This document shows positions 13,721 to 34,086 of a stretch of DNA of 64,000 bases, piece by piece. A model generated the notes under the pieces. That model made no database searches. It was not told the origin of the DNA and saw only the letters and a list, made by a program, of their open reading frames with translations. The position numbers and the translations under genes were made by a program. Source of the DNA: Candidatus Sericytochromatia bacterium (lineage in GTDB: Bacteria > Cyanobacteriota > Sericytochromatia > S15B-MN24 > JAQBPE01). The stretch's first letter is position 1. Each line of letters opens with the position of its first letter. Location: contig JAKFEW010000047.1 of assembly GCA_036675505.1 (NCBI GenBank), positions 8,821 through 72,820 of the forward strand. The letters are read 5' to 3'.

Positions 13721-13814
13721 GGGCTTCCTCCTCGTCGACGGGAGCCGTCGGTCGCCCCCTGGCCGATAGACCGGCCGGTGCTACGCTGGGTTCCAGCAGA
13801 AGGAGGGTGACCCG

Positions 13815-13976
13815 ATGGCCCCCGACGACGACAAGAAACGTGCAGTTCCGCCCGGCTTCCCCACGCCCGGCGAGCCCGGCTGGCCCCAAGTGCCGCCCGA
13901 GATCTCGCCACCGCCCGGCTCTCCGGGTGGCGAGCCCGAGATTCCCATGCCGCCGGACCAGCCCGGGAAAGGCTAG
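13815..13976 (+). CDS. Possible small Pro-rich ORF (53 aa) upstream of prfC
   Basis: GAAGGAGGG RBS lies 6 nt before the ATG. The frame reads MAPDDDKKRAVPPGFPTPGEPGWPQVPPEISPPPGSPGGEPEIPMPPDQPGKG*. It is below the 60-aa cutoff of the ORF track. Confidence 0.25.
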   Translation: MAPDDDKKRAVPPGFPTPGEPGWPQVPPEISPPPGSPGGEPEIPMPPDQPGKG

Positions 13977-14088
13977 CTCCGCGCGCCTCGAAACGGCCTG
14001 GCCGGTTCCCCGGAAGCCGCTTGCCGCCTTGACGAAGGGACGGTGGGCGCGGTATCGTGGCGTGTTCCCCCGTCCTGACGAGCAAGCC

Positions 14089-15717
14089 ATGACCACGACG
14101 CTCAGCCCCCTGAATACCGAGATCGAAAAGCGCCGTACGTTCGCGATCATTTCGCACCCTGACGCCGGCAAGACGACCTTGACCGAGAAGCTGCTGCTGT
14201 ACGGCGGGGCGATCCACACGGCCGGCGCGGTCAAGGCGTCCAAGGCCGCCCGCCACGCGACGTCGGACTGGATGGAGCTTGAGAAGCAGCGCGGCATCTC
14301 GGTCACGACCTCGGTCATGCAGTTCCCATACAAAGGCCACGAGCTGAACCTGATCGACACGCCGGGCCACCAGGACTTCTCCGAGGACACCTACCGCACG
14401 CTGGCGGCCGTCGACGCGGCGGTCATGCTGATCGATTGCGTGAAGGGCGTCGAGGCGCAGACCAAGAAGCTCTTCGCGGTCTGCCGCATGCGCGGCATCC
14501 CGATCTTCACCTTCATCAACAAGCTCGACCGCAACGGCCAGGACCCGCTCGAGCTGATGGAGGAGATCGAGCGCGTGCTCGGCATCCGCACCACGCCGAT
14601 GAACTGGCCGATCGGGATGGGCTCGGACTTCAAGGGCATCTACGAGCGCCGCACCGAGGAGGTCGTGCTCTTCACGGACACCCGCCATGGCACCAAGGAG
14701 GGCACGGTCCGCCGCATCAAGATCGACGATGCCGGCCTGACGGCGGCGATCGGTGAGGCGGCGCATGCCAAGCTGCTCGAGGACATCGAGATGCTCGACA
14801 TCGCGGGCGATCCGTTCGACGCCGAGCGCGTCACGAACGGTGAGCTCTCGCCGATGTACTTCGGCTCGGCGATGACGAACTTCGGCGTCGAGCCCTTCCT
14901 CGACTCGTTCATCGGCCTCGCGCCGATGCCCACGTCGAAGCCCACCACCGACGGCGTACGTGAGCCCGCCGACGAGCGGTTCAGCGGCTTCATCTTCAAG
15001 ATCCAGGCCAACATGAACCCGGCCCACCGGGACTGCGTGGCCTTCATGCGCATCGTGTCGGGCAAGTTCACGCGCGGCATGAGCGTCCGCCACGTGCGGC
15101 TGGGCCGCGACATCCGGCTCGCGAAATCCCTGCAGTTCATGGCCCAGGACCGCGTGCTCGTGGAGGACGCCTACCCGGGCGACGTGGTCGGCCTCTTCGA
15201 CCCCGGCATCCTGCGCATCGGCGACACGCTGTGCGAGGGCGAGGCGATCGCCTTCCGCGGGATCCCGCGCTTCACGCCGGAGATCTTCGCGACCATCCAG
15301 CTCAAGGACCCGGGCAAGCGCAAGCAGTTCAAGAAGGGCCTCGACCAGCTGATCGAGGAGGGCGCCGTCCAGATGTTCTACCGGCCGAGCGTGGGCGAGC
15401 AGGAGCCCATTCTGGGGGCCGTCGGCCGCCTGCAGTTCGACGTCTTCCAGCACCGCCTCAGGAGCGAGTACGGCGTGGACGTGATCTTCCGCGAGCTGCC
15501 CTTCGAGACGGCCCGCTGGGTCGTCGGCGAGGCGCTCGACGTCCCCAAGCTCGAACACTTCGGCGACAACATGTTCCTCAACGACCGCGACGGCCGCGCG
15601 ATGCTGCTCTTCCGCAACTCCCTGGCGCTGCGCTGGGAAGGTGAGCGGCACCCGCACCTGCAGTTCCTCGAGAACCTCGACGACGCGATCGCCGGGCCGC
15701 GGCTGCCCACCGCCTAG
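14089..15717 (+). CDS. prfC: Peptide chain release factor 3 (translational GTPase)
   Basis: G1-G4 motifs are present (AIISHPDAGKTTLTEKLL, DTPGH, NKLD). The C-terminus is RF3-type. I trimmed the start to MTTTLSPL. Confidence 0.92.
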   Translation: MTTTLSPLNTEIEKRRTFAIISHPDAGKTTLTEKLLLYGGAIHTAGAVKASKAARHATSDWMELEKQRGISVTTSVMQFPYKGHELNLIDTPGHQDFSEDTYRTLAAVDAAVMLIDCVKGVEAQTKKLFAVCRMRGIPIFTFINKLDRNGQDPLELMEEIERVLGIRTTPMNWPIGMGSDFKGIYERRTEEVVLFTDTRHGTKEGTVRRIKIDDAGLTAAIGEAAHAKLLEDIEMLDIAGDPFDAERVTNGELSPMYFGSAMTNFGVEPFLDSFIGLAPMPTSKPTTDGVREPADERFSGFIFKIQANMNPAHRDCVAFMRIVSGKFTRGMSVRHVRLGRDIRLAKSLQFMAQDRVLVEDAYPGDVVGLFDPGILRIGDTLCEGEAIAFRGIPRFTPEIFATIQLKDPGKRKQFKKGLDQLIEEGAVQMFYRPSVGEQEPILGAVGRLQFDVFQHRLRSEYGVDVIFRELPFETARWVVGEALDVPKLEHFGDNMFLNDRDGRAMLLFRNSLALRWEGERHPHLQFLENLDDAIAGPRLPTA

Positions 15718-17021: not shown

Positions 17022-18329
17022 ATGCGGACGACGACGACGCGGCGCAAGGTGATCGGGATCGGCCTCACGGCCGCCCTCGCGGCCACGATGGCCGGCTGTG
17101 GCGCGGGACCCCGCATGGCCGGCAGCGTCGCCGCCGGCGACCTGGTGACCCAGGGCGCGCGCGATCCCGGCCGCGACGAGGGGCCCACCCAGTCCCTGTT
17201 GCAGCCGGCGCATGCGCTGCGCGGCCCGAACCCCGTGCGCAGCGGCAACTTCGCGCGCCTGCACGCCTCGGCGTCGCAGACCCTGCCCGCGCTGCGCGCG
17301 CTGATCGGCTCGGCGAAGCGGTCGCTCTGGTTCGAGACCTTCAACTTCGGCAACGATTCGATGGGCCAGCAGATTTACCCGCTGCTGATCGAGAAGGCCA
17401 GGGCCGGCGTCGAGGTGAAGGTGATCATGGACTACGTCGGCAGCCGCTTCCTGCCGAAGCACGGCGAGATGGTCCGCGCGATGCGTCAGGCCGGCGTCGA
17501 GGTGCGGATGTACAAGCCGCGCTGGATCGTCAAGGACGACAAGCAGCGCGGCATCAACATCCAGCACCGCAAGGTCTACCTCGCGGACGGCGAGCGCGGC
17601 CTCACCGGCGGCGTGAACCTCATGCAGCCCTTCGACACCCACACCGAAGACGTGCTGGTGGAGTACCGCGGCCCGATCATCCGCGACCTCGCGGCCGAGT
17701 ACGCGTTCGACTGGAAGGCGAGCGGCGGCGATACGCTGGCGCTGCCGCCCCAGGCGCCGCCGCAGCCGGATGGCGACGTGGAGGCCCGCGTGGTCGTGAC
17801 CAGCCCGGCCGAAGGCCGCTTCGAGGGCCGCGACGCCATCTACGCCGGCCTCGCCGCCGCCCGGCGCCAGATCGAGATCGCGAACCAGTATCTCTGGGAC
17901 GACGGCATCATCAAGCGCCTGCACGCGGCGCTCGCGCGCGGCGTGAAGGTGCGCGTGATCGTGCCCGGCGACGAGGACCACGGGCCGTTCAAGGCGCTGC
18001 ACGGCGAGGAGCTCAAGAAGCTCACTGAGCACGGCGCGGAGGCGCGGTTGTTCACCGGCACGCACGCCGAGGCGCACCTGCACACGAAGTTCTTCGGCGC
18101 GGACGACGCCTGGGTGGCGATCGGCTCGACCAACGGCGACACGCGCGCGCTGATGGACAACCAGGAGCTCGACACGATCATCACGGACCCCTGGCTCGCC
18201 AAGGATTTCCGCGACCGCATGTTCCAGCGCCTCTGGACGAGCGAGTCGAAGCCGTTCGTCTACAAGCCGGGCGGCCCGATGACGAAGCCGTTCCGGACCC
18301 TGCTCGAGATCATCGACTACTACCTGTAG
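17022..18329 (+). CDS. Phospholipase D-family (HKD) lipoprotein, paralog A
   Basis: Lipobox LAATMAGCGAG. Two HKD motifs (NIQHRKVYLADGERGLTGGVNL, HLHTKFFGADDAWVAIGSTNGDTRAL). Confidence 0.85.
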   Translation: MRTTTTRRKVIGIGLTAALAATMAGCGAGPRMAGSVAAGDLVTQGARDPGRDEGPTQSLLQPAHALRGPNPVRSGNFARLHASASQTLPALRALIGSAKRSLWFETFNFGNDSMGQQIYPLLIEKARAGVEVKVIMDYVGSRFLPKHGEMVRAMRQAGVEVRMYKPRWIVKDDKQRGINIQHRKVYLADGERGLTGGVNLMQPFDTHTEDVLVEYRGPIIRDLAAEYAFDWKASGGDTLALPPQAPPQPDGDVEARVVVTSPAEGRFEGRDAIYAGLAAARRQIEIANQYLWDDGIIKRLHAALARGVKVRVIVPGDEDHGPFKALHGEELKKLTEHGAEARLFTGTHAEAHLHTKFFGADDAWVAIGSTNGDTRALMDNQELDTIITDPWLAKDFRDRMFQRLWTSESKPFVYKPGGPMTKPFRTLLEIIDYYL

Positions 18330-18333
18330 CCAG

Positions 18334-19701
18334 TTAGAACAGGAAGTCCACCGACTCCAGGATACTGAACAGCCACTTCTTCCAGAAGGGCAGCGCCTCG
18401 ATGGTCGCGAGCGCGATCGGCTTCGCCGTCTTCCAGTCGCGCTCGAGCTGCTCGTCGATGAACTTCTTCGCCGCGGCCTTGTCGTAGATGATGCTGTTCA
18501 GCTCGTGGTTCTGCGACAGCGTGCGCGCGTCGCCGTTCGCCGAGCCGATCGAGAGCACCTTGCCGTCGACGACCATCGCCTTGAAGTGCGAGAAGCTCTC
18601 GACCTGCTCGTTGCCGACCTTGAAGTTGCTCAGGAAGCGGACCTCGATGCCGGCCGCGAGCAGCTGGCGGGCCGACTCCATGTTGAGGTTGCCGTACAGG
18701 AAGCCCGGGATCCCGCGCTCGCCCTTGCCGGGCATCATCACCTTGATCGAGAGCTTGGGGTTGCGCTTCTTGGCCTTGATCAGCTCGTCGATCATCGCGT
18801 CGTCCGAGAAGTACGGGTAAACGATGCGGATCTCCGAGGTGGCGTAGCGGATCAGCTTGAGCTGGGTCTCGCGCAGCTCGGTCTTCTTGGCGTGCGGGTC
18901 GGTCACGACCGACTGCACCCAGGCCGCGCCGCCCTTGGCGGGCTTCACTTGCGGGATGTGGGCGGGCACCTTGCCGCCGGCCTTGACCCAGTTCTTGAGG
19001 AACTCGCGCTGGATGCGGGCGGTCTCGTCGCCCTCGACCGTGTACATCAGGTCGTGCCAGGCCTTCTCGGTGCCCTGGCCGGGGTTGAAGAAGGTGGGCT
19101 TGAGGTACTCGTCGCCGATGTTGCGGCCGCCCGAGAGGAACTTCGTGCCGTCCTGGATGAAGAGCTTGCGGTGGGTGATCGGCGTGGCGCCCGTGGCGGT
19201 GGGGTCGACGCTGCCGCGGTTGAACTCGCGGACCTCGATCCCGTTGTCGCGCAGGAACTTCACGATCTCCGTGTCCTTGGTCGGGTTCGTGGCGTCGCGC
19301 AGGCCGGACCAGTCGATCAGGACCTTCATGTCGAAGGGCTCGCCCTTCTCGTCGGCGAGGCGCTTGCGGTCGATCAGGGCCTGGGCGATCTCGCGGCCGG
19401 ACTCGTCGTTGTGCCAGATGAAGATCTCGAGCCAGAAGGCTTCCTTCGAGGTCTTGATCGCGTCGAGGATGGCGAGGCGCGATTCGTCGGGCGAGACGTG
19501 CAGGGTGACCTTGTTGTGGAAGGTGGGCTGGTTGAGGGCCAGGCGCTCGACGCCGAGCGTGCCGTTGCGCGCGAGCACCCGGTTGGCCGTCACGTCCTTG
19601 GGGGGCGCGATCTTGGCCTCCAGCTTGGGCAGCCGGCGGTCCTGGAACTTCAAGATCTTTTCGCGAATGTTCGTCGGCATCGTCAGATCGGCTCTCAACA
19701 A
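18334..19701 (-). CDS. Phospholipase D-family (HKD) protein, divergent paralog B (no obvious signal peptide)
   Basis: Two HKD motifs (THRKLFIQDGTKFLSGGRNIGDEY, SHFKAMVVDGKVLSIGSANGDARTL). The protein is Lys-rich and its codon usage has lower GC than the flanking genes. Confidence 0.85.
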   Translation of the reverse strand: MLRADLTMPTNIREKILKFQDRRLPKLEAKIAPPKDVTANRVLARNGTLGVERLALNQPTFHNKVTLHVSPDESRLAILDAIKTSKEAFWLEIFIWHNDESGREIAQALIDRKRLADEKGEPFDMKVLIDWSGLRDATNPTKDTEIVKFLRDNGIEVREFNRGSVDPTATGATPITHRKLFIQDGTKFLSGGRNIGDEYLKPTFFNPGQGTEKAWHDLMYTVEGDETARIQREFLKNWVKAGGKVPAHIPQVKPAKGGAAWVQSVVTDPHAKKTELRETQLKLIRYATSEIRIVYPYFSDDAMIDELIKAKKRNPKLSIKVMMPGKGERGIPGFLYGNLNMESARQLLAAGIEVRFLSNFKVGNEQVESFSHFKAMVVDGKVLSIGSANGDARTLSQNHELNSIIYDKAAAKKFIDEQLERDWKTAKPIALATIEALPFWKKWLFSILESVDFLF

Positions 19702-19902: not shown

Positions 19903-21201
19903 ATGAAGAGCGGAACCCGGATCGTCTTCACGGTTGCGATGGCAGCGCTGCTCGGCGCGTGCACCACCTTGTCGACTCCGCCCAGCGCCGGCACGAAGGC
20001 CGGCGCCCTCCAGGCCCTCGACGCCGTCGACGGCCCCGAGCCGCGCCTCGACCAGTACCCGACGCTGACGATCGACGTGCCGGCGCGGCCCACGCGCACC
20101 GCGCCGCGGCCCACCGGCGGCAACGTCGTCACGCCGTACGTGTCGCCCGCCGAGACCCTCCCGGCGCTGCTCGCGCTGATCGACGGCGCGAAGTCGTCGA
20201 TCTACCTCGAGACCTTCAACTTCGGCAGCCAGTCCTATGGCGAGCGGCTCGTGCCGCGCCTGATCGCGAAGGCCCGCGCGGGCGTCGAGGTGAAGGTGGT
20301 CATGGACTACTGCGGCAGCCGCTTCCTGCCGGGCCACAAGGAGATGCTGCGCGACCTGCGCGCGGCCGGCGTGGACGTGCGCCGCTACCTGCCGCGCGGG
20401 ATCCGCAAGGACGACCGGCAGATCGGCATCAACATCCAGCACCGCAAGGTCTACCTCGCGGACGGCGAGCGCGCGCTGGTGGGCGGCGTGAACCTCATGA
20501 AGGGGTTCGACACGATTCACCAGGACATCCTCGTGGCGTTCAGCGGGCCGGTGGTGGCGGACCTCTACAAGGAGTTCGCCCACGACTTCAAGGCCGCCGG
20601 CGGCAAAGCCGCGGTGCGCCTCCCGGCGCCGGTCTCGGCGGGCGGCTCGGCCACCACGCAGGTCTGCGTGACCAGCCCGGCCGAGGGCCGCTTCGAGGGC
20701 CGCGACATGATCTATGCGGGCATCGACGCCGCCAGCCGCTCGATCGTGATCGAGAACCAGTACCTCTGGGACGATCGCCTGATCGGGAAGCTCTACGCGG
20801 CGCTCGAGCGCGGCGTGCGGGTGCGCGTGATGGTGCCCGGCGAGGAAGCCAAAAAGGTGTGGCAGCACGTGCACGCCGAGGAGCTCAAGCGCCTCGTCGA
20901 TCGCGGCGCCGAAGCGCGCGTCTACCACGGCGATCCCTTCGAGGCCCACCTGCACGTGAAGTACTACTCGGTGGACGACCGCTGGACGGCGATCGGCTCG
21001 ACCAACGGCGACACGCGCGCGCTGCTCGACAACCAGGAAGTCCAGATCGCCGTCACCGACCCCGGATTCGCGGTGGAGCTGCGTCAGCGGCTCTTCGAGC
21101 GCGACTGGAACGAGCGCTCGCAGCCGTTCGTTTACAAGCCGGGGACCTTCATCAGCCGCCCCTTCCGGAGCCTGATGGAGATCATCGACTACTACTTGTA
21201 G
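19903..21201 (+). CDS. Phospholipase D-family (HKD) lipoprotein, paralog C (close paralog of A)
   Basis: Lipobox LLGACTT. HKD motifs (NIQHRKVYLADGERALVGGVNL, HLHVKYYSVDDRWTAIGSTNGDTRAL). It is collinear with paralog A over its whole length. Confidence 0.85.
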   Translation: MKSGTRIVFTVAMAALLGACTTLSTPPSAGTKAGALQALDAVDGPEPRLDQYPTLTIDVPARPTRTAPRPTGGNVVTPYVSPAETLPALLALIDGAKSSIYLETFNFGSQSYGERLVPRLIAKARAGVEVKVVMDYCGSRFLPGHKEMLRDLRAAGVDVRRYLPRGIRKDDRQIGINIQHRKVYLADGERALVGGVNLMKGFDTIHQDILVAFSGPVVADLYKEFAHDFKAAGGKAAVRLPAPVSAGGSATTQVCVTSPAEGRFEGRDMIYAGIDAASRSIVIENQYLWDDRLIGKLYAALERGVRVRVMVPGEEAKKVWQHVHAEELKRLVDRGAEARVYHGDPFEAHLHVKYYSVDDRWTAIGSTNGDTRALLDNQEVQIAVTDPGFAVELRQRLFERDWNERSQPFVYKPGTFISRPFRSLMEIIDYYL

Positions 21202-25882: not shown

Positions 25883-25954
25883 GCCCCGATGGTCTAGTGG
25901 TTAGGACACCACCCTTTCAAGGTGGTAACACGGGTTCAATTCCCGTTCGGGGTA
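25883..25954 (+). tRNA. tRNA-Glu (anticodon TTC)
   Basis: Cloverleaf folded by hand. The acceptor pairs gccccga with tcggggt (G1-U72 wobble). The D-arm is gtct/agtggttaggac. The anticodon stem is ccacc/ggtgg and the loop is cTTTCaa. The T-arm is acggg/ttcaatt/cccgt. The discriminator is A and there is no encoded CCA. It resembles the E. coli tRNA-Glu architecture. Confidence 0.85.
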
Positions 25955-25966
25955 CTCGCTTTCTGG

Positions 25967-26000: not shown

Positions 26001-26287
26001 AGGGCCGGTGCCGAATTTGGACCAACAGCCGCGTCGCCGGAGAAGATTCGAAGAGCGAGGCTATCGGCTCATCTTCAAGTTCGAATCCCGTCGGGTCGGT
26101 GGGTGCCTGTCAGCGAAGATGACGTCGATCGGCCGTTACAAGGCCCGGCGCAAAGGCGGCGGCACCTGAGGGTCGGCGTGCCGCGCCCGGCGCCCCCCGG
26201 CCTGTCTGGCGGGGAGCGGAAGTCGATGCCATTTGGCTCACGGGAGCGTGGGCGACGGCCTCGCCGGAACAGTCGGCACTGCTCCCC

Positions 26288-26878
26288 TTACCTGGGCACG
26301 CGCGCGACGATCGTGCCCCGCAGCTTGAATGTGCCCGTGGACCTGGCTTCAGCCACGGTGTCCGGGCTGTCGTCCGGCTCAAACATCAGGTCGAGGTTCA
26401 GGTCGATCCGATCGTCTTCCAAATCGTCGACCTCGACCGTCCCCGACGTCGCATGCCAGCGCCACCCATTGGTCGCGGTCGACTGGTCGAACTGCACGTT
26501 GGCCGTGCCGGGCGGGTCGTCCTTGCCGACCCGCCGTACGGTGTAGGTCCGCCCGCTTGCCGGTTTGCCCCAGATGGACACCGCAATCGAGCCAACCTTG
26601 CCCGTGTCGGCCTTTGGCCGCAGCGAGAAGTTCGGGCCCCAGAAGTTCGAGCCCATCTTCCCCAGGCCCTGCTCGTGGACGACGTCGGCGATCGGGCTCG
26701 CATCGAAGTTGCCTGGCGTAATGGCGGAGAACCACAGCTTCGCCCGCGTGCCTCCTTCGTCTTCGAGGGACACGAGCGTCACCTCGCCCGGCCGCTTTTC
26801 GTCGAGGCCCGCGAGCAGGTAGCACCCGGCAAGCGTCGAGGCCGTGCCGAACACGGCGACGGCCAGCGTTTGGGCCAT
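26288..26878 (-). CDS. Hypothetical lipoprotein
   Basis: MAQTLAVAVFGTASTLAGC lipobox at the trimmed start (26878). The longer ORF-track N-terminus overlaps repeat copy 1 and looks spurious. Confidence 0.5.
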   Translation of the reverse strand: MAQTLAVAVFGTASTLAGCYLLAGLDEKRPGEVTLVSLEDEGGTRAKLWFSAITPGNFDASPIADVVHEQGLGKMGSNFWGPNFSLRPKADTGKVGSIAVSIWGKPASGRTYTVRRVGKDDPPGTANVQFDQSTATNGWRWHATSGTVEVDDLEDDRIDLNLDLMFEPDDSPDTVAEARSTGTFKLRGTIVARVPR

Positions 26879-27095
26879 GCAGTTGCGAATGAAGCTCAAC
26901 TCAACCTCCTTGGAGCAGGCGAGCACTTTGGGCCGCCCAGGCAGCCCACATTGTACATCGGGAGGCGTGGCGCTGAACCTGATCACGATTTCGAACATTT
27001 GCACCGCCGCCTGTCCGAATTGGCCCGCGTCATGCGGCACCCGGTACAAGCGTCCGGACCTCCGGGGTGACCATGGCTCGGCAAAGCTCGCCAGC

Positions 27096-27144
27096 GAAAG
27101 TTCTAACATCGTTCCGTTGGGGGTACAAGCGAGCAAGGGTTCCG
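27096..27144 (+). repeat. Island direct repeat, copy 1 (GAAAGTTCTAACATCGTTCCGTTGGGGGTAC-aagcgag-CAAGGGTTCCG)
   Basis: It shares a 16/16 core with copies 2 and 3. Its 3' half (CCGTTGGGGGTAC) resembles the tRNA-Glu 3' end (CCGTTCGGGGTAC). Confidence 0.7.
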
Positions 27145-27168
27145 TCGATCAGTCGATGGGACCCTTCT

Positions 27169-27687
27169 TCATTCGGATGCCGTCTCGGGCTGCGGGCGTG
27201 GCGTTACTTCTCGCCCCCACTTCATGAATTCGGCCCGATCCATGGTCTTCTGCTTGTCCTCGGCCAACATATCGAACGCCTCGTCCGTCCGGCCGCCCAG
27301 CATCGCCTCGAGGTACCGCTGGCCGCCCTTCACGTAGATCGCCGTGTCGGTCGGCACGCGCGTGACGGCGTCGGCGATTTCAACGCCCACAGGGTCGTGT
27401 ACGATGAGCGTTGAGAGTTGATCGCCGAGAAAGCCGACGATCATCGACAGCTCGCGCTTCTCGAACACGAACAAGCCCTTGAACTGGCGAGACCGGCGGG
27501 ACCCGTTGAGGTTGTCGCTGAACTCGTCCGACTTGATCGACTCGAGCGCTCCGAAGCGCGTCGCGATCTCCTTGACGAACGCCGCGAATAGCTCCGGATC
27601 GACCGCCTTGGCCTTGAGCTCGGGCGCGAGCTGCGCCTCGATCTGGGCCAGGCTGGCGCCACGCGTGGCCTCGAAGAATTGTTTGGT
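27169..27687 (-). CDS. Hypothetical protein. Only the C-terminal 172 codons are convincing. The 5' part is probably frameshifted or truncated (pseudogene candidate).
   Basis: The well-formed coding part is TKQFFEATRGASLAQIEAQLAPELKAKAVD...MKWGREVTPRPQPETASE. The upstream part of the 439-aa ORF is Cys/Arg-rich junk. A different frame (ORF 27441..27950) carries a plausible continuation ...PLVRIEFDVPVP. Confidence 0.35.
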   Translation of the reverse strand, partial: TKQFFEATRGASLAQIEAQLAPELKAKAVDPELFAAFVKEIATRFGALESIKSDEFSDNLNGSRRSRQFKGLFVFEKRELSMIVGFLGDQLSTLIVHDPVGVEIADAVTRVPTDTAIYVKGGQRYLEAMLGGRTDEAFDMLAEDKQKTMDRAEFMKWGREVTPRPQPETASE

Positions 27688-27922
27688 GTCGGCACCGGAA
27701 CGTCGAACTCGATGCGCACGAGCGGGCTCACCGTCGGCGCTCTTGCAAGCGGCTTGACCTGGCCCACGGCAACGCCGGTCAGTCGTCCGGTAGACGAGAC
27801 AAGCGTAAGCGTCGTCGTCGCACGGGGGCTGGCCGAGCTGTCCGTCCAATTCCGATGGCGGGAGGGTATGCAAGTCCCAAGGGCATGAATTCCATCGGCG
27901 GTAGCTGCGGCAGTGTGACTCG

Positions 27923-28357
27923 ATGCGTTGGACCAAGCTAGCGAGCGCATGGGCGCTGGTGGTGGTAGCCGGGCTGTATTCGGCGAGCTTGGTGCCGAGC
28001 TGGCACCTGGGCACGATGCTGTGGCCTTGGGCCGCGATCGGGAGCTTCCTGGCGTTGGCTCTCCTTCTTTGGCAGACGCCGGATGACGTCGATTTCGACG
28101 TGTGGCGGCGCTTCCCGACGTGGACCGTTGTTGGCTGCGCGTTCTTCGCGATCAGCGTGATGGGGAACACCATATACCTCGGCGACGAGATCGCGGTCCG
28201 CGACGGTCGACTTGCGATGCGGCAAGACTCCAGGTGGACTTCCATTTCGGAAGACGAACCGGCTCGCCAAATGGACATGAAGCTCAGGCTGGGCCTGGGC
28301 TTGGTGCTGCCGGGCTTCCTCTTCCTCGTCCTGGCCAATCGCCGTCGAGGCGGCTGA
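27923..28357 (+). CDS. Hypothetical membrane protein (3-4 TM helices)
   Basis: Hydrophobic segments (LASAWALVVVAGLYSASLV, AAIGSFLALALLLW, VVGCAFFAISVMG, LGLGLVLPGFLFLVLA). Coding-like GC3. Confidence 0.5.
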   Translation: MRWTKLASAWALVVVAGLYSASLVPSWHLGTMLWPWAAIGSFLALALLLWQTPDDVDFDVWRRFPTWTVVGCAFFAISVMGNTIYLGDEIAVRDGRLAMRQDSRWTSISEDEPARQMDMKLRLGLGLVLPGFLFLVLANRRRGG

Positions 28358-28488
28358 CGTTCGAGCGGCGTCGCCCAGCTGCAAGGGGGCAAGCCACTGC
28401 GATATGCTTCCGAGGTCAAGACAGCCACAGCGGTGTCTACCGGCCAGTGGAGAAGTTCTTGGGTTGCAAGCGCGGCAGCAAAGCTCAC

Positions 28489-28540
28489 GAAAGAAGTTCT
28501 AACATCGCCCCGTTGGGGGTACTATCATGCAAGGGTCCCG
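28489..28540 (+). repeat. Island direct repeat, copy 2 (GAAAGaagTTCTAACATCGCCCCGTTGGGGGTAC-tatcatg-CAAGGGTCCCG)
   Basis: Read directly in the sequence. It has a 3-nt insertion relative to copy 1. Confidence 0.7.
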
Positions 28541-28832
28541 CCTGGATGCAGGCGGGACCTTCATTTTGAGGGCAGCCGCTACTCCATCTCCATCACGTCG
28601 ACGAACCGCCCGTCGATGCCCTGGCCGTTCGCGAAGTTTCGACCCGTTGACACGGGTGTCGAGGCCGTTCGCGGGCTGTCGTCGAATACGATGCGGTTCC
28701 AAGCGCCCCGACTTGAATCAGAAGCCGGACCGTCTCCTCGTCGAAGCACGCGAAGGACCGATTCCCGGTTTCGCAAATGTGTTGACAATTCCGTGTGATA
28801 AGGCTACCTTGGGGACAGGGAAAAAGGTCCGA

Positions 28833-29111
28833 ATGCCCTTTTGGAACCGGAAGCGAAATGGCATCACCTTTGTCTTCAAGTCGGACCCGGTTGACGACAC
28901 GATGGCGCATATCTTCGCCCGGCACCGCAAGACTGAGGCGCAGGCGATGGCCATCTGGTTCGGCTTCACAAAGGAGCGGTAGAACGACGAGCACCAGCGG
29001 TTCGAGTCCTACACAGACGCGGAAGGCCTATTCTGGAAGTGGCATGACAAGGACACCGACAACACCCTTGTCCTGGTCATCAGCTGCTTCGATCGTCGCG
29101 AAGGCGAGTAA
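28833..29111 (+). pseudogene. brnT: BrnT-like (DUF497) ribonuclease toxin gene interrupted by an in-frame TAG at 28980-28982
   Basis: The N-terminal half (...ITFVFKSDPVDDTMAHIFARHRKTEAQAMAIWFGFTKER*) resembles BrnT FEWD..K...N..KHGVSFEEA..VF. Reading through the TAG in the same frame gives NDEHQRFESYTDAEGLFWKWHDKDTDNTLVLVISCFDRREGE*, which matches the BrnT C-terminal block (ER....G...LLVVV.T.R...IRIISAR). Confidence 0.55.
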
Positions 29112-29122
29112 GGGAGGCTGTT

Positions 29123-29473
29123 ATGTCGACCAACACCAACCCACGCCCCCGGCGCGTAGCGCCTGAACCTGGTCTGACGGCGTCTCAGGCCGAGATGAGC
29201 GAGCGTGAGCCGTGCACGTTCGACGATCCGGCATCGGAGGCTCATGCCGAGGCCGCGATCGCCCAGGCGGACGCGGAATTGGCCGCCCGAAAGCCCAACG
29301 TCAACTTTCGTTGGGAAGCCGCGCCGCTTGACGTGGTTCGGCTCGCGGCCGAACTCGCGGGCGTCCCCTATCAGACCTGGATGAAGCAGGTGCTATACAA
29401 GGAGGCCGTCGCGGCCATCACGGCCGCCCGCGAGGTGGACCCCCGCGCCCGCAAGCTCGCCGGCGGCGGCTAA
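29123..29473 (+). CDS. brnA: BrnA-like antitoxin (DUF4415/RHH-like)
   Basis: RKPNVNFRWEAAPLDVVRLAAELAGVPYQTWMKQVLYKEAV matches the BrnA C-terminal signature (...isiRLpe.lle.lk.lA...gvpYQtlin..L.e...). GGGAGG RBS. It lies 12 nt after the brnT stop. Confidence 0.65.
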   Translation: MSTNTNPRPRRVAPEPGLTASQAEMSEREPCTFDDPASEAHAEAAIAQADAELAARKPNVNFRWEAAPLDVVRLAAELAGVPYQTWMKQVLYKEAVAAITAAREVDPRARKLAGGG

Positions 29474-29528
29474 CCACTTCGCCGATGTCAGCCACGACGG
29501 GCATCCGGTTCATGGGTGTGGGATTCTC

Positions 29529-30296
29529 ATGTCCCCCATGATCATGCGAAGCGGATGGGTCTACTGCGACTGCTGGCGTGCCGGCCGGATCGGCGCGCTG
29601 CCGTTCCCGCGAGAATGGGTCAAGGTGGACCCCGAGTCGGGCGGGACGTGGGTCGAGAACCCGGCTTGGCCTCACCCTCCCGCCGACGGGACGCCGGCTC
29701 GCGAGGCGTTGGATGCCTCCAACGAGGCGCTCCGGCAGGCCTGTCCGCATGGCTTCAACGACGAGATGCTCACCAACGTGGACGGCGTCGACGGGCTCGC
29801 GAGGCGCCTGAAGGCCAATGGCGCCCCACACCTCTCGCACCTCATGGCCTTGTTGGAGGACCCCGGCCCGTACACGTCGCCGGCCGTCGCAGAGTCCGCA
29901 CTGCCGGAGCTGACGGTGGCGGAGGCTACGCTCGTCACGGAACGGGGCCTGGCGATCGTGGATGCGGACACCGGGGAGACCCTCGCAGGGCCACTACCGC
30001 CCGAGCTTCACCAGCAGCTCTACTTACCTCTGGATCACGAGCGAATCTTGTACCTGGAGGGCCGCGAACTGGTTCTGAAGCGCCACTTTCGGGTCGTCGA
30101 GGTGCGCCGCTTCAGGGCGCGTGACGTCCGGCTGCGGACCCGGAAGGTCGAGGATCTAGGAAGAGGTCCGGGGATCACCGCAGGGCGACGTTTCCGCGTC
30201 GAGGAGCGGCCGTATCGGCCCTATGCGGACCTGGTGAGCAGCCTGCGGGCGTTGTGCCTGGAGTCCGTGCGCTTCCGGAACCCGATCGTGTGGTAG
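29529..30296 (+). CDS. Hypothetical protein (255 aa), unknown function
   Basis: Strong GC3 bias. No recognisable domain. It lies immediately upstream of, and co-oriented with, the HTH antitoxin-like gene. Confidence 0.5.
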   Translation: MSPMIMRSGWVYCDCWRAGRIGALPFPREWVKVDPESGGTWVENPAWPHPPADGTPAREALDASNEALRQACPHGFNDEMLTNVDGVDGLARRLKANGAPHLSHLMALLEDPGPYTSPAVAESALPELTVAEATLVTERGLAIVDADTGETLAGPLPPELHQQLYLPLDHERILYLEGRELVLKRHFRVVEVRRFRARDVRLRTRKVEDLGRGPGITAGRRFRVEERPYRPYADLVSSLRALCLESVRFRNPIVW

Positions 30297-30430
30297 CCCG
30301 GCCATCTTGGTCAGGCCGGCATCCAGCCGTGCACGGTCCTCCGCGATCGCCCGGGATCCACACGACCTGTTCGCCTGGCCATTTGGGCCGCTCAAGCCGC
30401 ACCGGGCAGCAGTTCCTGAACTTCGGGCTC

Positions 30431-30694
30431 ATGGAGGGCCGATATGAAGACGCAGATGAGCTGGCGATCAAAGCCGAGCTGGCTTCGAGCATCCACGCGA
30501 TGGTCGAGGCGCGCGAGTTCACTCAGGAGCAGGCTGCCAAGGTCCTTGGGATGCCAAGACCCGAGGTGAGCCACCTGATGCGCGGGCGGCTCGCGCGCTT
30601 CACGATCGACCGGCTCGTGCGGGCCCACAACGCCCTCGCCCCCGACATCAGGATCGGGATCTCGTCTCAGCCTCGAAAGGCTGTACAGATGTAG
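30431..30694 (+). CDS. XRE/HTH_37-type antitoxin-like DNA-binding protein (HigA-family-like)
   Basis: AREFTQEQAAKVLGMPRPEVSHLMRGRLARFTIDRLVRAHNALAPDIRIGI matches the HTH_37/HigA2-like antitoxin pattern (..tQ.eaA..lg..q..vS.l.rGk...fsldrL...l.aLg..v.i). No RelE/HigB-like toxin lies adjacent. Confidence 0.6.
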   Translation: MEGRYEDADELAIKAELASSIHAMVEAREFTQEQAAKVLGMPRPEVSHLMRGRLARFTIDRLVRAHNALAPDIRIGISSQPRKAVQM

Positions 30695-31189
30695 ATGATG
30701 GCGACCGAAGGAGACGCGGTCGTGCCCCTGATGAGCTACGACGACTTCTTGAAGCTCGAGATTCCGGGCGAGGTGATCGAGGGCGTGCTCTATCTGGGAG
30801 GCCGGCGCGTCAAGGATTGGCGCAAGCTTGCGGAGTTGCTTGACGACGGCGACGAGGATGGCTAGGTCGTCGTTAGTCGGGTCAGGCCCTCAGCCAGGCG
30901 TGGATCAGGATGCTCAGGTCCAGATAGGTGCGGAGCTTCACTTCCCTTGATCATCTCAATCAGCGCCACCAGTTCAGGTGTTGAATTATGCGCGCAGCGG
31001 GCAGGTCACGATGTCCGAAGGGACGTGACCGCCCGACTGTGATCCAAGTGGTGTGGCCATCCTGGCGGTTCGATCCCCGTTGGCAGGGACACGCCCGAGG
31101 CAGACGCGTGTGCTGCGCGCCTGACGGCACCCTTCGGCAACCGCCTGCATTTCAACGAGCGGGCGGCGGGCGGCAGCCAAGCAGGGCCG

Positions 31190-31945
31190 TCAGCGGCCGC
31201 CGGCGACGTCCCACCAAGGCACGCCCTGGCTATCGTAGATGCCCACGGCGTAGTCGCGCACGGCCACCAAGTGGCCATTCGAGGTGGCCCTCAGGGCCCG
31301 CCAGGGCCCCTTGGGGCCGGCCGAAATGGGCATGTAGAGCAACGCGCCGGCCCGGCGCGGATCCACGCCGACGCCCGCCGAGTCGCCGCCCTCCGACGTC
31401 GCCGAGGTGCGATCGCCCACCATGGGCGCGAGCGCCACGGTCCCGGCCAGCACGTCCGGCCCGAGCTTCCCGCCCCACGGGCTGCGGTCGTAGTCATCCG
31501 CCGATTTCGCCTGCCACATCGCCACGAACTCCGCGCCAGTCGGCAGACGGTGCGCGCTGCCACGGTACGCCTCCACCATGGCCACAGCGTTACGGATGCG
31601 GTCCTGCGCGTAGCGATCCTGGGCCATGCGGACGACCACGCCGCGTGGGACCACGCTGCAGAGCAGGAGCAACGAAAGCAGGCCCGCCCCCGCAAGGCCG
31701 CCGGGCGTGCCGGGCAGGCGGCTCGCCTTGCCGGCCGCCTTGAACCCGGCGACCACGAGCATGGCCACGGACACGCTCGCGCAAGCCGCCGCCAGCCGAT
31801 CGAGGACTTCGGTCTCGCCCCGGATCAAGTCGAAGAAGACCGCCGGCTGGAGAGCTGCGGGCCCGTTCCAGATCGTGACGGCGCTGCAGGTGAAAACGTA
31901 GAGCACCACCAGGGCATAGGGGATGCCGATGAGCCACTTCAACAC
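31190..31945 (-). CDS. Hypothetical membrane protein
   Basis: The N-terminus has TM segments (LIGIPYALVVLYVFTCSAVTIW, VSVAMLVVAGFKAAG...LLSLLLLCSVV). Coding-like GC3. Confidence 0.5.
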   Translation of the reverse strand: MLKWLIGIPYALVVLYVFTCSAVTIWNGPAALQPAVFFDLIRGETEVLDRLAAACASVSVAMLVVAGFKAAGKASRLPGTPGGLAGAGLLSLLLLCSVVPRGVVVRMAQDRYAQDRIRNAVAMVEAYRGSAHRLPTGAEFVAMWQAKSADDYDRSPWGGKLGPDVLAGTVALAPMVGDRTSATSEGGDSAGVGVDPRRAGALLYMPISAGPKGPWRALRATSNGHLVAVRDYAVGIYDSQGVPWWDVAGGR

Positions 31946-32248: not shown

Positions 32249-32278
32249 GAAAGTTCTAACATTGTCCCGTTGGGGGTC
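32249..32278 (+). repeat. Island direct repeat, copy 3 (GAAAGTTCTAACATTGTCCCGTTGGGGGTC)
   Basis: Read directly in the sequence. It lacks the CAAGGGTYCCG tail. Confidence 0.65.
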
Positions 32279-32307
32279 TCACATTCCGGCCCCTCCAGCG
32301 CCTCGAC

Positions 32308-34037: not shown

Positions 34038-34068
34038 AGCGTGCCCCGAAGGTTCAATAACCGTCCAG
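34038..34068 (+). repeat. Island direct repeat, copy 4 (most diverged: GAAGGTTCAATAACCGTCCAGTTGGGGGTAC)
   Basis: It shares GTTGGGGGTAC and GGTTCAAT with the T-loop/acceptor region of tRNA-Glu. A CAAGG sequence follows ~25 nt downstream. Confidence 0.5.
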
Positions 34069-34086
34069 TTGGGGGTACTGGCAAGT

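What the first reader, a model, noticed from the sequence alone, without database searches (positions are those of the whole stretch)
28833..29473. brnT toxin gene inactivated by a single in-frame amber codon while brnA is intact
The ORF starting at 28833 matches the N-terminal half of BrnT (DUF497) and stops at TAG 28980-28982. The same frame then continues for 42 codons with the BrnT C-terminal block and ends 12 nt before an intact BrnA (DUF4415) gene with its own GGGAGG RBS. A toxin killed by a point nonsense mutation beside a retained antitoxin is a typical picture of TA decay. It could also be a sequencing error, or a rare read-through-dependent toxin.
Basis: partly seen in the sequence, partly recalled or inferred. 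Interest (0 to 1): 0.55.

Follow-up and report, generated by a model that had tools for sequence, protein, structure and literature searches.

The report
Recently broken BrnT-like toxin gene
A small toxin gene of an unannotated, BrnT-like toxin-antitoxin pair has been switched off by one G-to-A change that turns a conserved tryptophan codon into a stop, while its antitoxin partner remains open; this is an ordinary, recent case of toxin loss, in a gene family that no database yet names.

Summary
Window 28833-29111 (+) is a 92-codon frame with a single TAG at 28980-28982. Every close homologue is an intact 92-aa protein with Trp at that codon. A sister lineage about 95% identical in DNA across the toxin gene (L017) has TGG. 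An independent assembly of run SRR17380409 reproduces the TAG exactly.

The post-stop half carries no derived amino-acid change, so the lesion is very recent. TAG is a normal stop in this genome, which RF3 similarity places in Sericytochromatia.

The module lies on a variable islet next to tRNA-Glu. The antitoxin has two lineage-specific changes in its N-terminal part.

Several distant family members are also broken at or beside codon 50. This is probably a nonsense hot spot combined with recurrent toxin loss.

The finding is ordinary, with modest interest.

The parts
28782..28810 (+). Putative operon promoter: TTGACA (28782-28787), 17-nt spacer, TACCTT (28805-28810)
   Evidence: Read from the sequence. 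The -35 TTGACA is conserved in position in L017 and, with TAAAGT as -10, in L001-L003. The simple consensus scan did not report it because the -10 matches only 3 of 6. Function is inferred, not shown.
28833..28982 (+). Truncated toxin ORF: 49 codons plus the premature TAG. It encodes the N-terminal beta-hairpin and two helices, including the conserved H26 and R30-H31.
   Evidence: The exact 49-aa product is P0265, on record from NCBI and Logan. Secondary structure comes from the model of homologue P0001.
28980..28982 (+). Amber codon TAG replacing the conserved Trp50 codon TGG (G>A at 28981)
   Evidence: Trp is invariant in close homologues. The position is aromatic in 63 of 69 family members. 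TGG is present in L001-L003 and L017. The TAG is reproduced in Logan contig L018.
28983..29111 (+). Untranslated remainder of the toxin frame: 42 codons plus TAA. It encodes four core beta-strands, R56-x-E58 and the IISCF motif. It has no in-frame ATG/GTG/TTG from which translation could restart.
   Evidence: There is no derived amino-acid change relative to relatives.
29112..29122 (+). 11-nt spacer carrying the antitoxin's own Shine-Dalgarno sequence, GGGAGG (29112-29117)
   Evidence: The spacing is conserved in L001-L003 and L017.
29123..29473 (+). Antitoxin gene, 116 aa. The C-terminal part is RHH-like (VNFRW...GVPYQTWMKQVLY). The N-terminal part carries the conserved EREP[Y>C]TFDD motif. 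Two changes are specific to this lineage: a 2-aa deletion and Y31C.
   Evidence: PF12441 CopG_antitoxin E=3.7e-4, 21.6 bits against a cut-off of 28. The same top family was found for 6 partner proteins from other loci. The pairing is conserved in every locus read.
28494..28567 (+). Left edge of the islet that carries the module: a repeat resembling the tRNA-Glu 3' end (28494-28540), running into a hairpin (28534-28559) with a T-rich tail
   Evidence: Repeat family. In L017 the tRNA-Glu region joins directly at this point, and window 26005-28509 is absent.
25883..25955 (+). tRNA-Glu(UUC), the likely anchor of the variable islet array
   Evidence: ARAGORN and Rfam, 71 bits.
32251..32297 (+). Next repeat resembling the tRNA-Glu 3' end; probable right edge of the islet carrying the module
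   Evidence: L017 and the window diverge after 30296.

Best explanation
Window 28782-29473 is a chromosomal type II toxin-antitoxin operon with the toxin gene first and the antitoxin second. It belongs to an unannotated family distantly related to BrnT/BrnA. It sits on a variable islet beside tRNA-Glu in a Sericytochromatia (non-photosynthetic Cyanobacteriota) metagenome-assembled genome.

In the intact state, which is inferred, one promoter drives two genes. The first encodes a 92-aa toxin with a BrnT/RelE-type (BECR) RNase fold, whose conserved polar residues are H26, R30-H31 and R56-x-E58. The second encodes an antitoxin of about 117 aa. Its N-terminal part (EREPYTFDD motif) would neutralise the toxin, and its C-terminal ribbon-helix-helix would bind the operator.

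In this genome a single G>A transition changed the Trp50 codon TGG to TAG, which is shown. Translation should therefore stop after 49 residues. The fragment lacks four core strands and R56/E58, so it should be non-toxic; this is inferred. The antitoxin keeps its own Shine-Dalgarno sequence and open frame.

The event is very recent. A sister lineage about 95% identical in DNA across the toxin gene still has TGG, and the 42 codons after the stop carry no derived amino-acid change.
For: The stop is real and derived. Searches give the sequence. Searches show intact 92-aa homologues with invariant Trp50. Searches show TGG in L001-L003 and L017. One search shows a second assembly identical to the window, TAG included.

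The event is recent. In the toxin gene, the window and L017 differ at 13 of 279 nt. All three amino-acid differences after the stop (T61M, K69T, D72G) are derived in L017, not in the window, when polarised with P0001, P0261 and P0263. Against the distant L001, both halves show pN 0.08-0.13 with synonymous sites saturated.

TAG is a normal stop here. Many high-GC3 ORFs end in TAG, among them the RF3 gene and the two PLD-type genes later identified. No suppressor tRNA lies in the window.

The pair behaves as a module. The toxin-like gene and the partner are adjacent and co-oriented in every locus read, in Sericytochromatia, Obscuribacterales, Planktothrix and Chloroflexota.

There is a weak sequence link to BrnT. 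hhalign aligns 71 columns, with ARH against KH and IISC against IISA. The family HMM scores real BrnT proteins at a median of 7.2 bits, against -0.9 for 1,220 shuffles whose maximum is 7.3.

The partner is RHH-like. PF12441 is the top hit in 7 of 7 partners.

The context is an islet. The evidence is tRNA-Glu, repeats resembling the tRNA 3' end, a GC dip, and an insertion/deletion difference against L017.
Against: No read-level data are available. The two agreeing assemblies may derive from the same reads.

Neither toxicity nor neutralisation has been tested for any member of this family.

Pfam, NCBIfam, PHROGs and PADLOC models do not recognise the toxin. hhalign probability is only 17.6%. The Arg residues of BrnT's IRIISAR motif are not conserved in the family; they align with L-V-L-I-S-C-F.

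The antitoxin carries two unique N-terminal changes, so 'intact' is not proven.

Several distant relatives are broken at the same codon. That could mean something other than simple decay.
Confidence: 0.8

Rival explanations
1. The TAG is an artefact or a minority allele. This would be a base-calling or consensus error, or a strain variant fixed by the binning and assembly of a metagenome, and the organism's real gene would read TGG.
For: The source is a metagenome-assembled genome. Only one base differs from a sense codon. The downstream frame is pristine, which is also what an error would leave.
Against: An independent Logan assembly of SRR17380409 is identical over 4,351 bp, TAG included. 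Consensus substitution errors are rare in short-read assemblies (general knowledge). Comparable internal disruptions are seen in several other lineages and samples of this family, so real toxin loss is common here.
Confidence: 0.08
2. The stop is leaky and the gene is still functional at a low level. Near-cognate read-through of UAG-A would give a trickle of full-length toxin, an attenuated toxin that is tolerated or even selected.
For: The 42 codons after the stop are undamaged. In-frame stops at the same codon, each with an intact downstream frame, occur in at least three other distant lineages: L020-22 (TAG), Planktothrix L005/L023 (TAA) and L030 (TAA).
Against: The stop is absent from the sister lineage L017 and from all close homologues, so it is not conserved. 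Both TAG and TAA occur, and frameshifts and multi-lesion pseudogenes sit at the same place (L019, L028/29, L025-27). That pattern fits loss, not recoding. TAG terminates many ordinary genes in the window. I selected the other cases because their products were about 50 aa, which biases the position. A Trp codon is a two-route transition target for nonsense.
Confidence: 0.06
3. The pair is not a toxin-antitoxin system. It would be a small RNA-binding or RNase-fold protein with an RHH regulator serving another role, and the nonsense mutation would simply be loss of a dispensable accessory gene.
For: No member has been tested. No curated TA or defence model recognises the first gene. Sequence similarity to BrnT is marginal.
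Against: The fold is closest to BrnT-family toxins. The gene order and size are those of brnTA (PMC11980606, PMC13284704). The partner consistently hits an antitoxin RHH family. The module sits in variable islets near other TA genes: PIN/PhdYefM and Fic in L017, and HTH_37 in the window. The first gene is repeatedly inactivated while the second is retained, which is the typical signature of a toxic gene.
Confidence: 0.06

Closest known systems
BrnT/BrnA of Brucella abortus (Pfam PF04365 BrnT_toxin / PF14384 BrnA_antitoxin; PDB 3U97)
   Different: There is no PF04365 hit, and hhalign probability is only 17.6%. The family has an extra N-terminal beta-strand and its own signature: F13, F15, H26, R56-x-E58, W68 and IIS[CA]F. 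BrnT's conserved Arg residues in IRIISAR are missing. The partner has no PF14384 hit.
Salmonella Typhimurium BrnT-family toxin, PDB 7VD7 chain A
   Different: Sequence identity in the structural alignment is 13%.
CopG_antitoxin (Pfam PF12441, Met_repress clan RHH antitoxins)
   Same: It is the top Pfam family for the window's partner protein and for six partners from other loci. The match always covers the C-terminal ...R(W)...GVPYQT..KQ... segment. A precomputed 'weak' PF12441 hit is also on record for L025-27.
   Different: All scores (16.8-24.9 bits) are below the 28-bit gathering cut-off. The N-terminal half has no known family.
RelE/ParE superfamily (BECR fold) type II toxins, e.g. RelE, HigB, ParE, and M. 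tuberculosis RelS-RelI
   Different: Structural scores are lower than to BrnT-family structures. The antitoxin type differs: RelI is an HTH protein of a new type.
CdiA-CT of E. coli NC101 (PDB 5I4Q), a contact-dependent inhibition tRNase
   Different: It is a C-terminal domain of a very large secreted protein with an unrelated immunity protein. Identity is 7%, and the genetic context is different.

Membership tests
BrnT toxin (Pfam PF04365 / DUF497) | Match to the PF04365 profile at or above the curated cut-off | tested here: not met
   There was no hit at E<=10 for the N-half, the C-half or the fused 92-aa product. Only 1 of 69 family members gives a sub-threshold hit, at E=0.02. NCBIfam gives none.
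BrnT toxin (Pfam PF04365 / DUF497) | Detectable remote sequence homology to BrnT proteins (profile level) | tested here: inconclusive
   hhalign of the family against a 40-sequence PF04365 alignment gives probability 17.6%, E 1.4e-3 and 71 columns in a sensible register. The family HMM scores 122 real BrnT sequences at a median of 7.2 bits, against -0.9 for shuffles with a maximum of 7.3. B. abortus BrnT itself scores -0.2 bits.
BrnT toxin (Pfam PF04365 / DUF497) | BrnT-type RelE-like fold | tested here: met
BrnT toxin (Pfam PF04365 / DUF497) | Residues shown to matter for BrnT toxicity (K16, H17, R72; PMC13284704 citing Heaton 2012) | tested here: inconclusive
   R30-H31 (R in 60 of 69, H in 56 of 69) aligns with the K-H pair. 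The Arg of IRIISAR aligns with a hydrophobic residue. The family instead conserves H26, R56 and E58.
BrnT toxin (Pfam PF04365 / DUF497) | Ribonuclease activity and growth inhibition | not testable with these tools
   This requires expression of an intact allele, such as L017 or P0001.
BrnA antitoxin (Pfam PF14384 / DUF4415) | Match to the PF14384 profile | tested here: not met
   There was no PF14384 hit at E<=10 for the 116-aa partner, nor at E<=1 for six partner proteins from other loci.
CopG_antitoxin (Pfam PF12441) | Match to the PF12441 profile at or above the 28-bit cut-off | tested here: inconclusive
   It is the top family in 7 of 7 partners, but scores are 16.8-24.9 bits (E 3.6e-5 to 1.2e-2). 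All matches lie over the C-terminal RHH-like segment.
Type II toxin-antitoxin module | Two small, adjacent, co-oriented genes whose pairing is conserved across distant taxa | tested here: met
   The same pair is found in L001-L003, L004-L009, L017 and L019-L030. The gap is 11 nt, or the genes overlap or are fused.
Type II toxin-antitoxin module | The toxin arrests growth, and the antitoxin binds it and neutralises it | not testable with these tools
Pseudogene (recent nonsense allele) | A premature stop at a codon that is sense in all relatives, with a truncated product lacking the conserved core | tested here: met
   Trp50 is invariant in close homologues and the position is aromatic in 63 of 69 members. 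The sister allele reads TGG. The truncation removes strands beta 47-51, 56-60, 64-70 and 79-87.

The most novel reading that the evidence does not exclude
The interruption at codon 50 is not random decay but a recurrent, selected state of this toxin family. At least four lineages only 37-58% identical to one another carry an in-frame stop exactly at the conserved aromatic codon 50, with the rest of the frame undamaged: the window, L020-22, Planktothrix L005/L023, and L030. Others have frameshifts within six codons upstream of codon 50. This could reflect a leaky-stop (read-through-limited) toxin. Alternatively, the retained 49-residue N-terminal fragment could still serve the operon, for example as a partner of the antitoxin in autoregulation.
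Probability: 0.06. Interest if true: 0.6.

Novelty: new member of a known kind. Interest (0 to 1): 0.3.

Why it matters
As a single locus this is a textbook snapshot of toxin-antitoxin decay, caught very early: one transition, and no secondary damage.

Its wider use is twofold. First, it flags a BrnT-like toxin family with an RHH partner that Pfam, NCBIfam, PHROGs and PADLOC all miss. The family has 134 representative clusters, found here mainly in Sericytochromatia, Melainabacteria, cyanobacteria and Chloroflexota. It would be worth a profile, so that these genes stop being annotated as hypothetical.

Second, the family shows repeated, independent inactivation of the toxin with retention of the antitoxin. 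This is indirect evidence that the first gene is really toxic. It also offers a small natural data set for studying how TA modules degrade into orphan antitoxins.

Tried and rejected
1. Direct family assignment failed. Pfam, NCBIfam, PHROGs and PADLOC scans of the halves and of the fused toxin gave nothing significant.
2. Profile searches against PDB sequences gave only spurious hits, such as S2, designed proteins and TAL repeats. I rejected these.
3. The first structure model, from 5 sequences, was poor (pLDDT 62). I did not use it.
5. I considered TAG reassignment or pyrrolysine and rejected both. TAG ends many ordinary genes, the sister allele reads TGG, and no suppressor tRNA lies in the window.
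6. Re-initiation after the stop is rejected. There is no in-frame ATG/GTG/TTG in 28983-29108.
7. The longer 151-aa ORF (28527-28982) is rejected as the real gene. Its extension starts inside the terminator-like hairpin, and all homologues start at the MPFW position.
8. I looked for the same locus in other strains to test polymorphism. The genome contigs and metagenome-contig scans found only distant relatives. The exact look-up of the 49-aa product failed. The sister contig L017 was reached through cluster membership.
9. A phage or plasmid origin found no support: no relatives in IMG/VR or PLSDB.
10. The partners of canonical BrnT genes that I fetched for comparison had no informative Pfam hits.
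11. The paper on the 7VD7 structure and Heaton 2012 are not in the held library.

Full report
**Observation**

The + strand from ATG 28833 reads 49 sense codons and then TAG at 28980-28982. A further 42 sense codons follow in the same frame, ending at TAA 29109-29111. An 11-nt spacer, GGGAGGCTGTT, follows, and then an ATG-initiated 116-codon ORF at 29123-29473.

A word-indexed search of 5.8 billion proteins with the fused 92-aa product returned only five close relatives, at 48-81% identity. All are intact proteins of 87-92 aa, or 69 aa when called from an internal Met. Trp is invariant at the position of the TAG. DNA alignments show GAGCGGTGGAAC in relatives against GAGCGGTAGAAC in the window, so the lesion is one G>A transition at 28981.

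**Is the TAG real, and how old is it?**

The window's 49-aa product is itself on record (P0265; NCBI contig of 87.5 kb, plus Logan). A Logan assembly of run SRR17380409 (L018) is identical to window 27123-31473 over 4,351 bp, TAG included. This excludes an assembler-specific artefact. It does not exclude a read-level artefact.

A sister lineage (L017, run SRR22388034) is 94.8% identical over window 28509-30296 and carries TGG. In the toxin gene the two differ at 13 of 279 nt. I polarised the differences with P0001, P0261 and P0263. The three amino-acid differences after the stop (T61M, K69T, D72G) are all derived in L017, so the window has accumulated no amino-acid change downstream of its stop.

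Against the distant L001 copy, both halves show low non-synonymous divergence (pN 0.08 and 0.13) with synonymous sites saturated. The nonsense mutation is therefore very recent.

TAG is an ordinary stop in this genome. Many high-GC3 ORFs in the window end in TAG, among them those later identified as the RF3 gene and two PLD-type genes. The only tRNA in the window is tRNA-Glu. No in-frame start codon follows the TAG.

The G>A change at a TGG codon is one of 13 possible transition routes to a stop in this gene.

**What family is it?**

Neither half, nor the fused product, matches Pfam DUF497/BrnT. NCBIfam, PHROGs and PADLOC give nothing either.

An exhaustive HMMER search of 1.84 billion representative proteins with the close-homologue profile found 134 clusters. 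An alignment of 69 full-length members gives the signature F13, F15, [DE]18, H26, R30-H31, A38, aromatic 50, R56-x-E58, W68 and I-I-[ST]-[CA]-F. Only 1 of the 69 members gives a sub-threshold BrnT hit. The source names seen are all 'hypothetical protein'.

Profile-profile comparison with that BrnT alignment gives a sensible 71-column alignment, with ARH against KH and IISC against IISA, but only 17.6% probability. In a control I ran, the family HMM scores 122 real BrnT sequences at a median of 7.2 bits. Composition-matched shuffles score -0.9 bits, with a maximum of 7.3 in 1,220.

So the toxin is a separate, unannotated family that is BrnT-like in fold and faintly BrnT-like in sequence. It is not a DUF497 member by the family's own model.

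**The partner**

The 116-aa protein has no DUF4415/BrnA hit. Its best match is PF12441 CopG_antitoxin (E 3.7e-4, below the cut-off) over the C-terminal VNFRW...GVPYQTWMKQVLY segment. Six partner proteins from other loci give the same top family in the same region, at 16.8-24.9 bits against a cut-off of 28. PF12441 and PF14384 both belong to the RHH (Met_repress) clan (PMC7354421).

The toxin-then-partner arrangement is conserved in every locus I read. These come from Sericytochromatia, Obscuribacterales, Planktothrix and Chloroflexota. It is the brnTA gene order (PMC11980606, PMC13284704).

The window's partner is open but not untouched. Relative to four close relatives it alone lacks two residues ([VI]-E) and has Cys in place of the conserved Tyr in EREPYTFDD. 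Both changes lie in the N-terminal, presumably toxin-binding, half. Whether they preceded or followed the toxin's loss cannot be told.

**Context**

The window is chromosomal. It carries an RF3 gene, an RND efflux pump and cardiolipin-synthase-like genes. Its RF3 is 86-91% identical to proteins named Candidatus Sericytochromatia bacterium.

The module lies in a stretch of lower GC, 0.61-0.64 against 0.69 for the window as a whole. This stretch is downstream of tRNA-Glu at 25883-25955.

Four copies of a 28-47-nt sequence resembling the tRNA's 3' end lie at 27098, 28494, 32251 and 34052. The first two are followed by a hairpin like the one after the tRNA.

In L017 the tRNA-Glu region joins directly to the module at the 28494 repeat, so window 26005-28509 is absent there. 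The two contigs also diverge after 30296. L017 continues with PIN/PhdYefM and Fic genes, while the window continues with an HTH_37 protein. This is the pattern of a tRNA-linked array of small variable islets.

No relatives were found in phage or plasmid collections.

**Mechanism**

Shown:
- The stop, and its derived and recent status.
- The conserved gene pair.
- The predicted fold.

Inferred:
- The intact protein is an RNase-type toxin whose active site uses H26, R30-H31 and R56/E58.
- The partner's N-terminal part neutralises the toxin, and its RHH represses the TTGACA-N17-TACCTT promoter.
- The 49-residue fragment, which lacks four strands and R56/E58, is inactive.
- The antitoxin is still translated from its own GGGAGG.

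**An unexpected pattern**

Several representative clusters of the family are products of about 50 aa. All the ones I could look up lie inside contigs, with the partner gene present:
- L020-22 (three samples) has an in-frame TAG at W50, in a frame that runs on into the antitoxin domain.
- A Planktothrix MAG (L005 = L023/L024) has an in-frame TAA at codon 50.
- L030 has a TAA where its nearest relative has Tyr50.
- L019 has a 1-nt insertion two codons before W50.
- L028/29 has a frameshift within codons 44-49.
- L025-27 (20 contigs) has a TAA there, plus a frameshift and a second stop.

The four lineages whose products I aligned (the window, L019, L020 and L023) are 37-58% identical to one another.

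I picked these cases because of their length, so the position is partly a selection effect. About 9 of roughly 25 N-terminal fragments end at profile positions 47-51. Trp and Tyr codons are one step from a stop.

The simplest reading is recurrent loss of a toxic gene at a nonsense-prone codon and in an adjacent loop of variable length. A selected or leaky stop is not excluded, but it is unlikely. It would need the unbiased census and the read-through assay described under next steps.

**Verdict**

The 'TA decay' interpretation is supported. The DUF497 and DUF4415 labels should be replaced by 'BrnT-like unannotated family with a PF12441-like RHH partner'. The locus itself is ordinary. The unannotated family and the recurrent breaks at codon 50 add modest interest.

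Noticed in passing
window 27098-27144, 28494-28540, 32251-32297, 34052-34079 (and tRNA-Glu 25883-25955): There are four same-orientation copies of a 28-47-nt sequence, AAGTTCTAACATCGYCCCGTTGGGGGTAC, which resembles the 3' end of the adjacent tRNA-Glu. The first two copies are followed by a hairpin like the one after the tRNA. The sister contig L017 lacks window 26005-28509, exactly between the tRNA end and the 28494 copy. This looks like tandem islets at a tRNA attachment site, but no integrase was seen.
   Followed up: partly
window 29123-29473: Compared with four close relatives, the antitoxin alone has a 2-aa deletion ([VI]-E after Q22) and Y31C in the conserved EREPYTFDD motif. Its RHH half is unchanged.
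   Followed up: partly
L020:453-1136, L005:4962-5231 (= L023:1201-1470), L030:601-950, L019:1501-1790, L028:13-300, L025:1201-1500: Distant members of the same toxin family are also interrupted at or next to codon 50, by in-frame TAG or TAA, a 1-nt insertion, or frameshifts. The partner gene is retained in each. One such allele is on 20 contigs from many samples. The position is partly a selection effect of how I picked the cases.
   Followed up: partly
L020:453-1136: In this lineage the toxin frame continues without a stop into the antitoxin domain. This is a toxin-antitoxin fusion ORF, as described for some brnTA genes in PMC11980606, and here it is interrupted by TAG at W50.
   Followed up: no
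window 30389-30694: This is an HTH_37/XRE-type protein (Pfam E 3.9e-20). Such proteins are usually the antitoxin of Gp49/HigB-type toxins. It also matches the PADLOC candidate PDC-M64C (E 2.5e-6). No recognisable toxin gene lies next to it. The upstream 255-aa ORF (29529-30296) and the downstream 56-aa ORF (30695-30865) have no family.
   Followed up: no
window 17022-18329 and 19903-21201: These are two paralogous phospholipase-D / cardiolipin-synthase-like genes of about 430 aa each, on the same strand, separated by an unannotated minus-strand ORF (18334-19701). Both also weakly resemble DISARM DrmC.
   Followed up: no
L017:3193-5145: To the right of the shared module, the sister contig carries a PIN/PhdYefM toxin-antitoxin pair and a Fic-domain gene where the window has different genes. 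The islet content therefore varies between close lineages.
   Followed up: no
window 13807-15717: This is the peptide chain release factor 3 gene. The longest ORF starts about 95 codons upstream of the start used in the database entry (542 aa), so the mechanical ORF start is probably too early.
   Followed up: no
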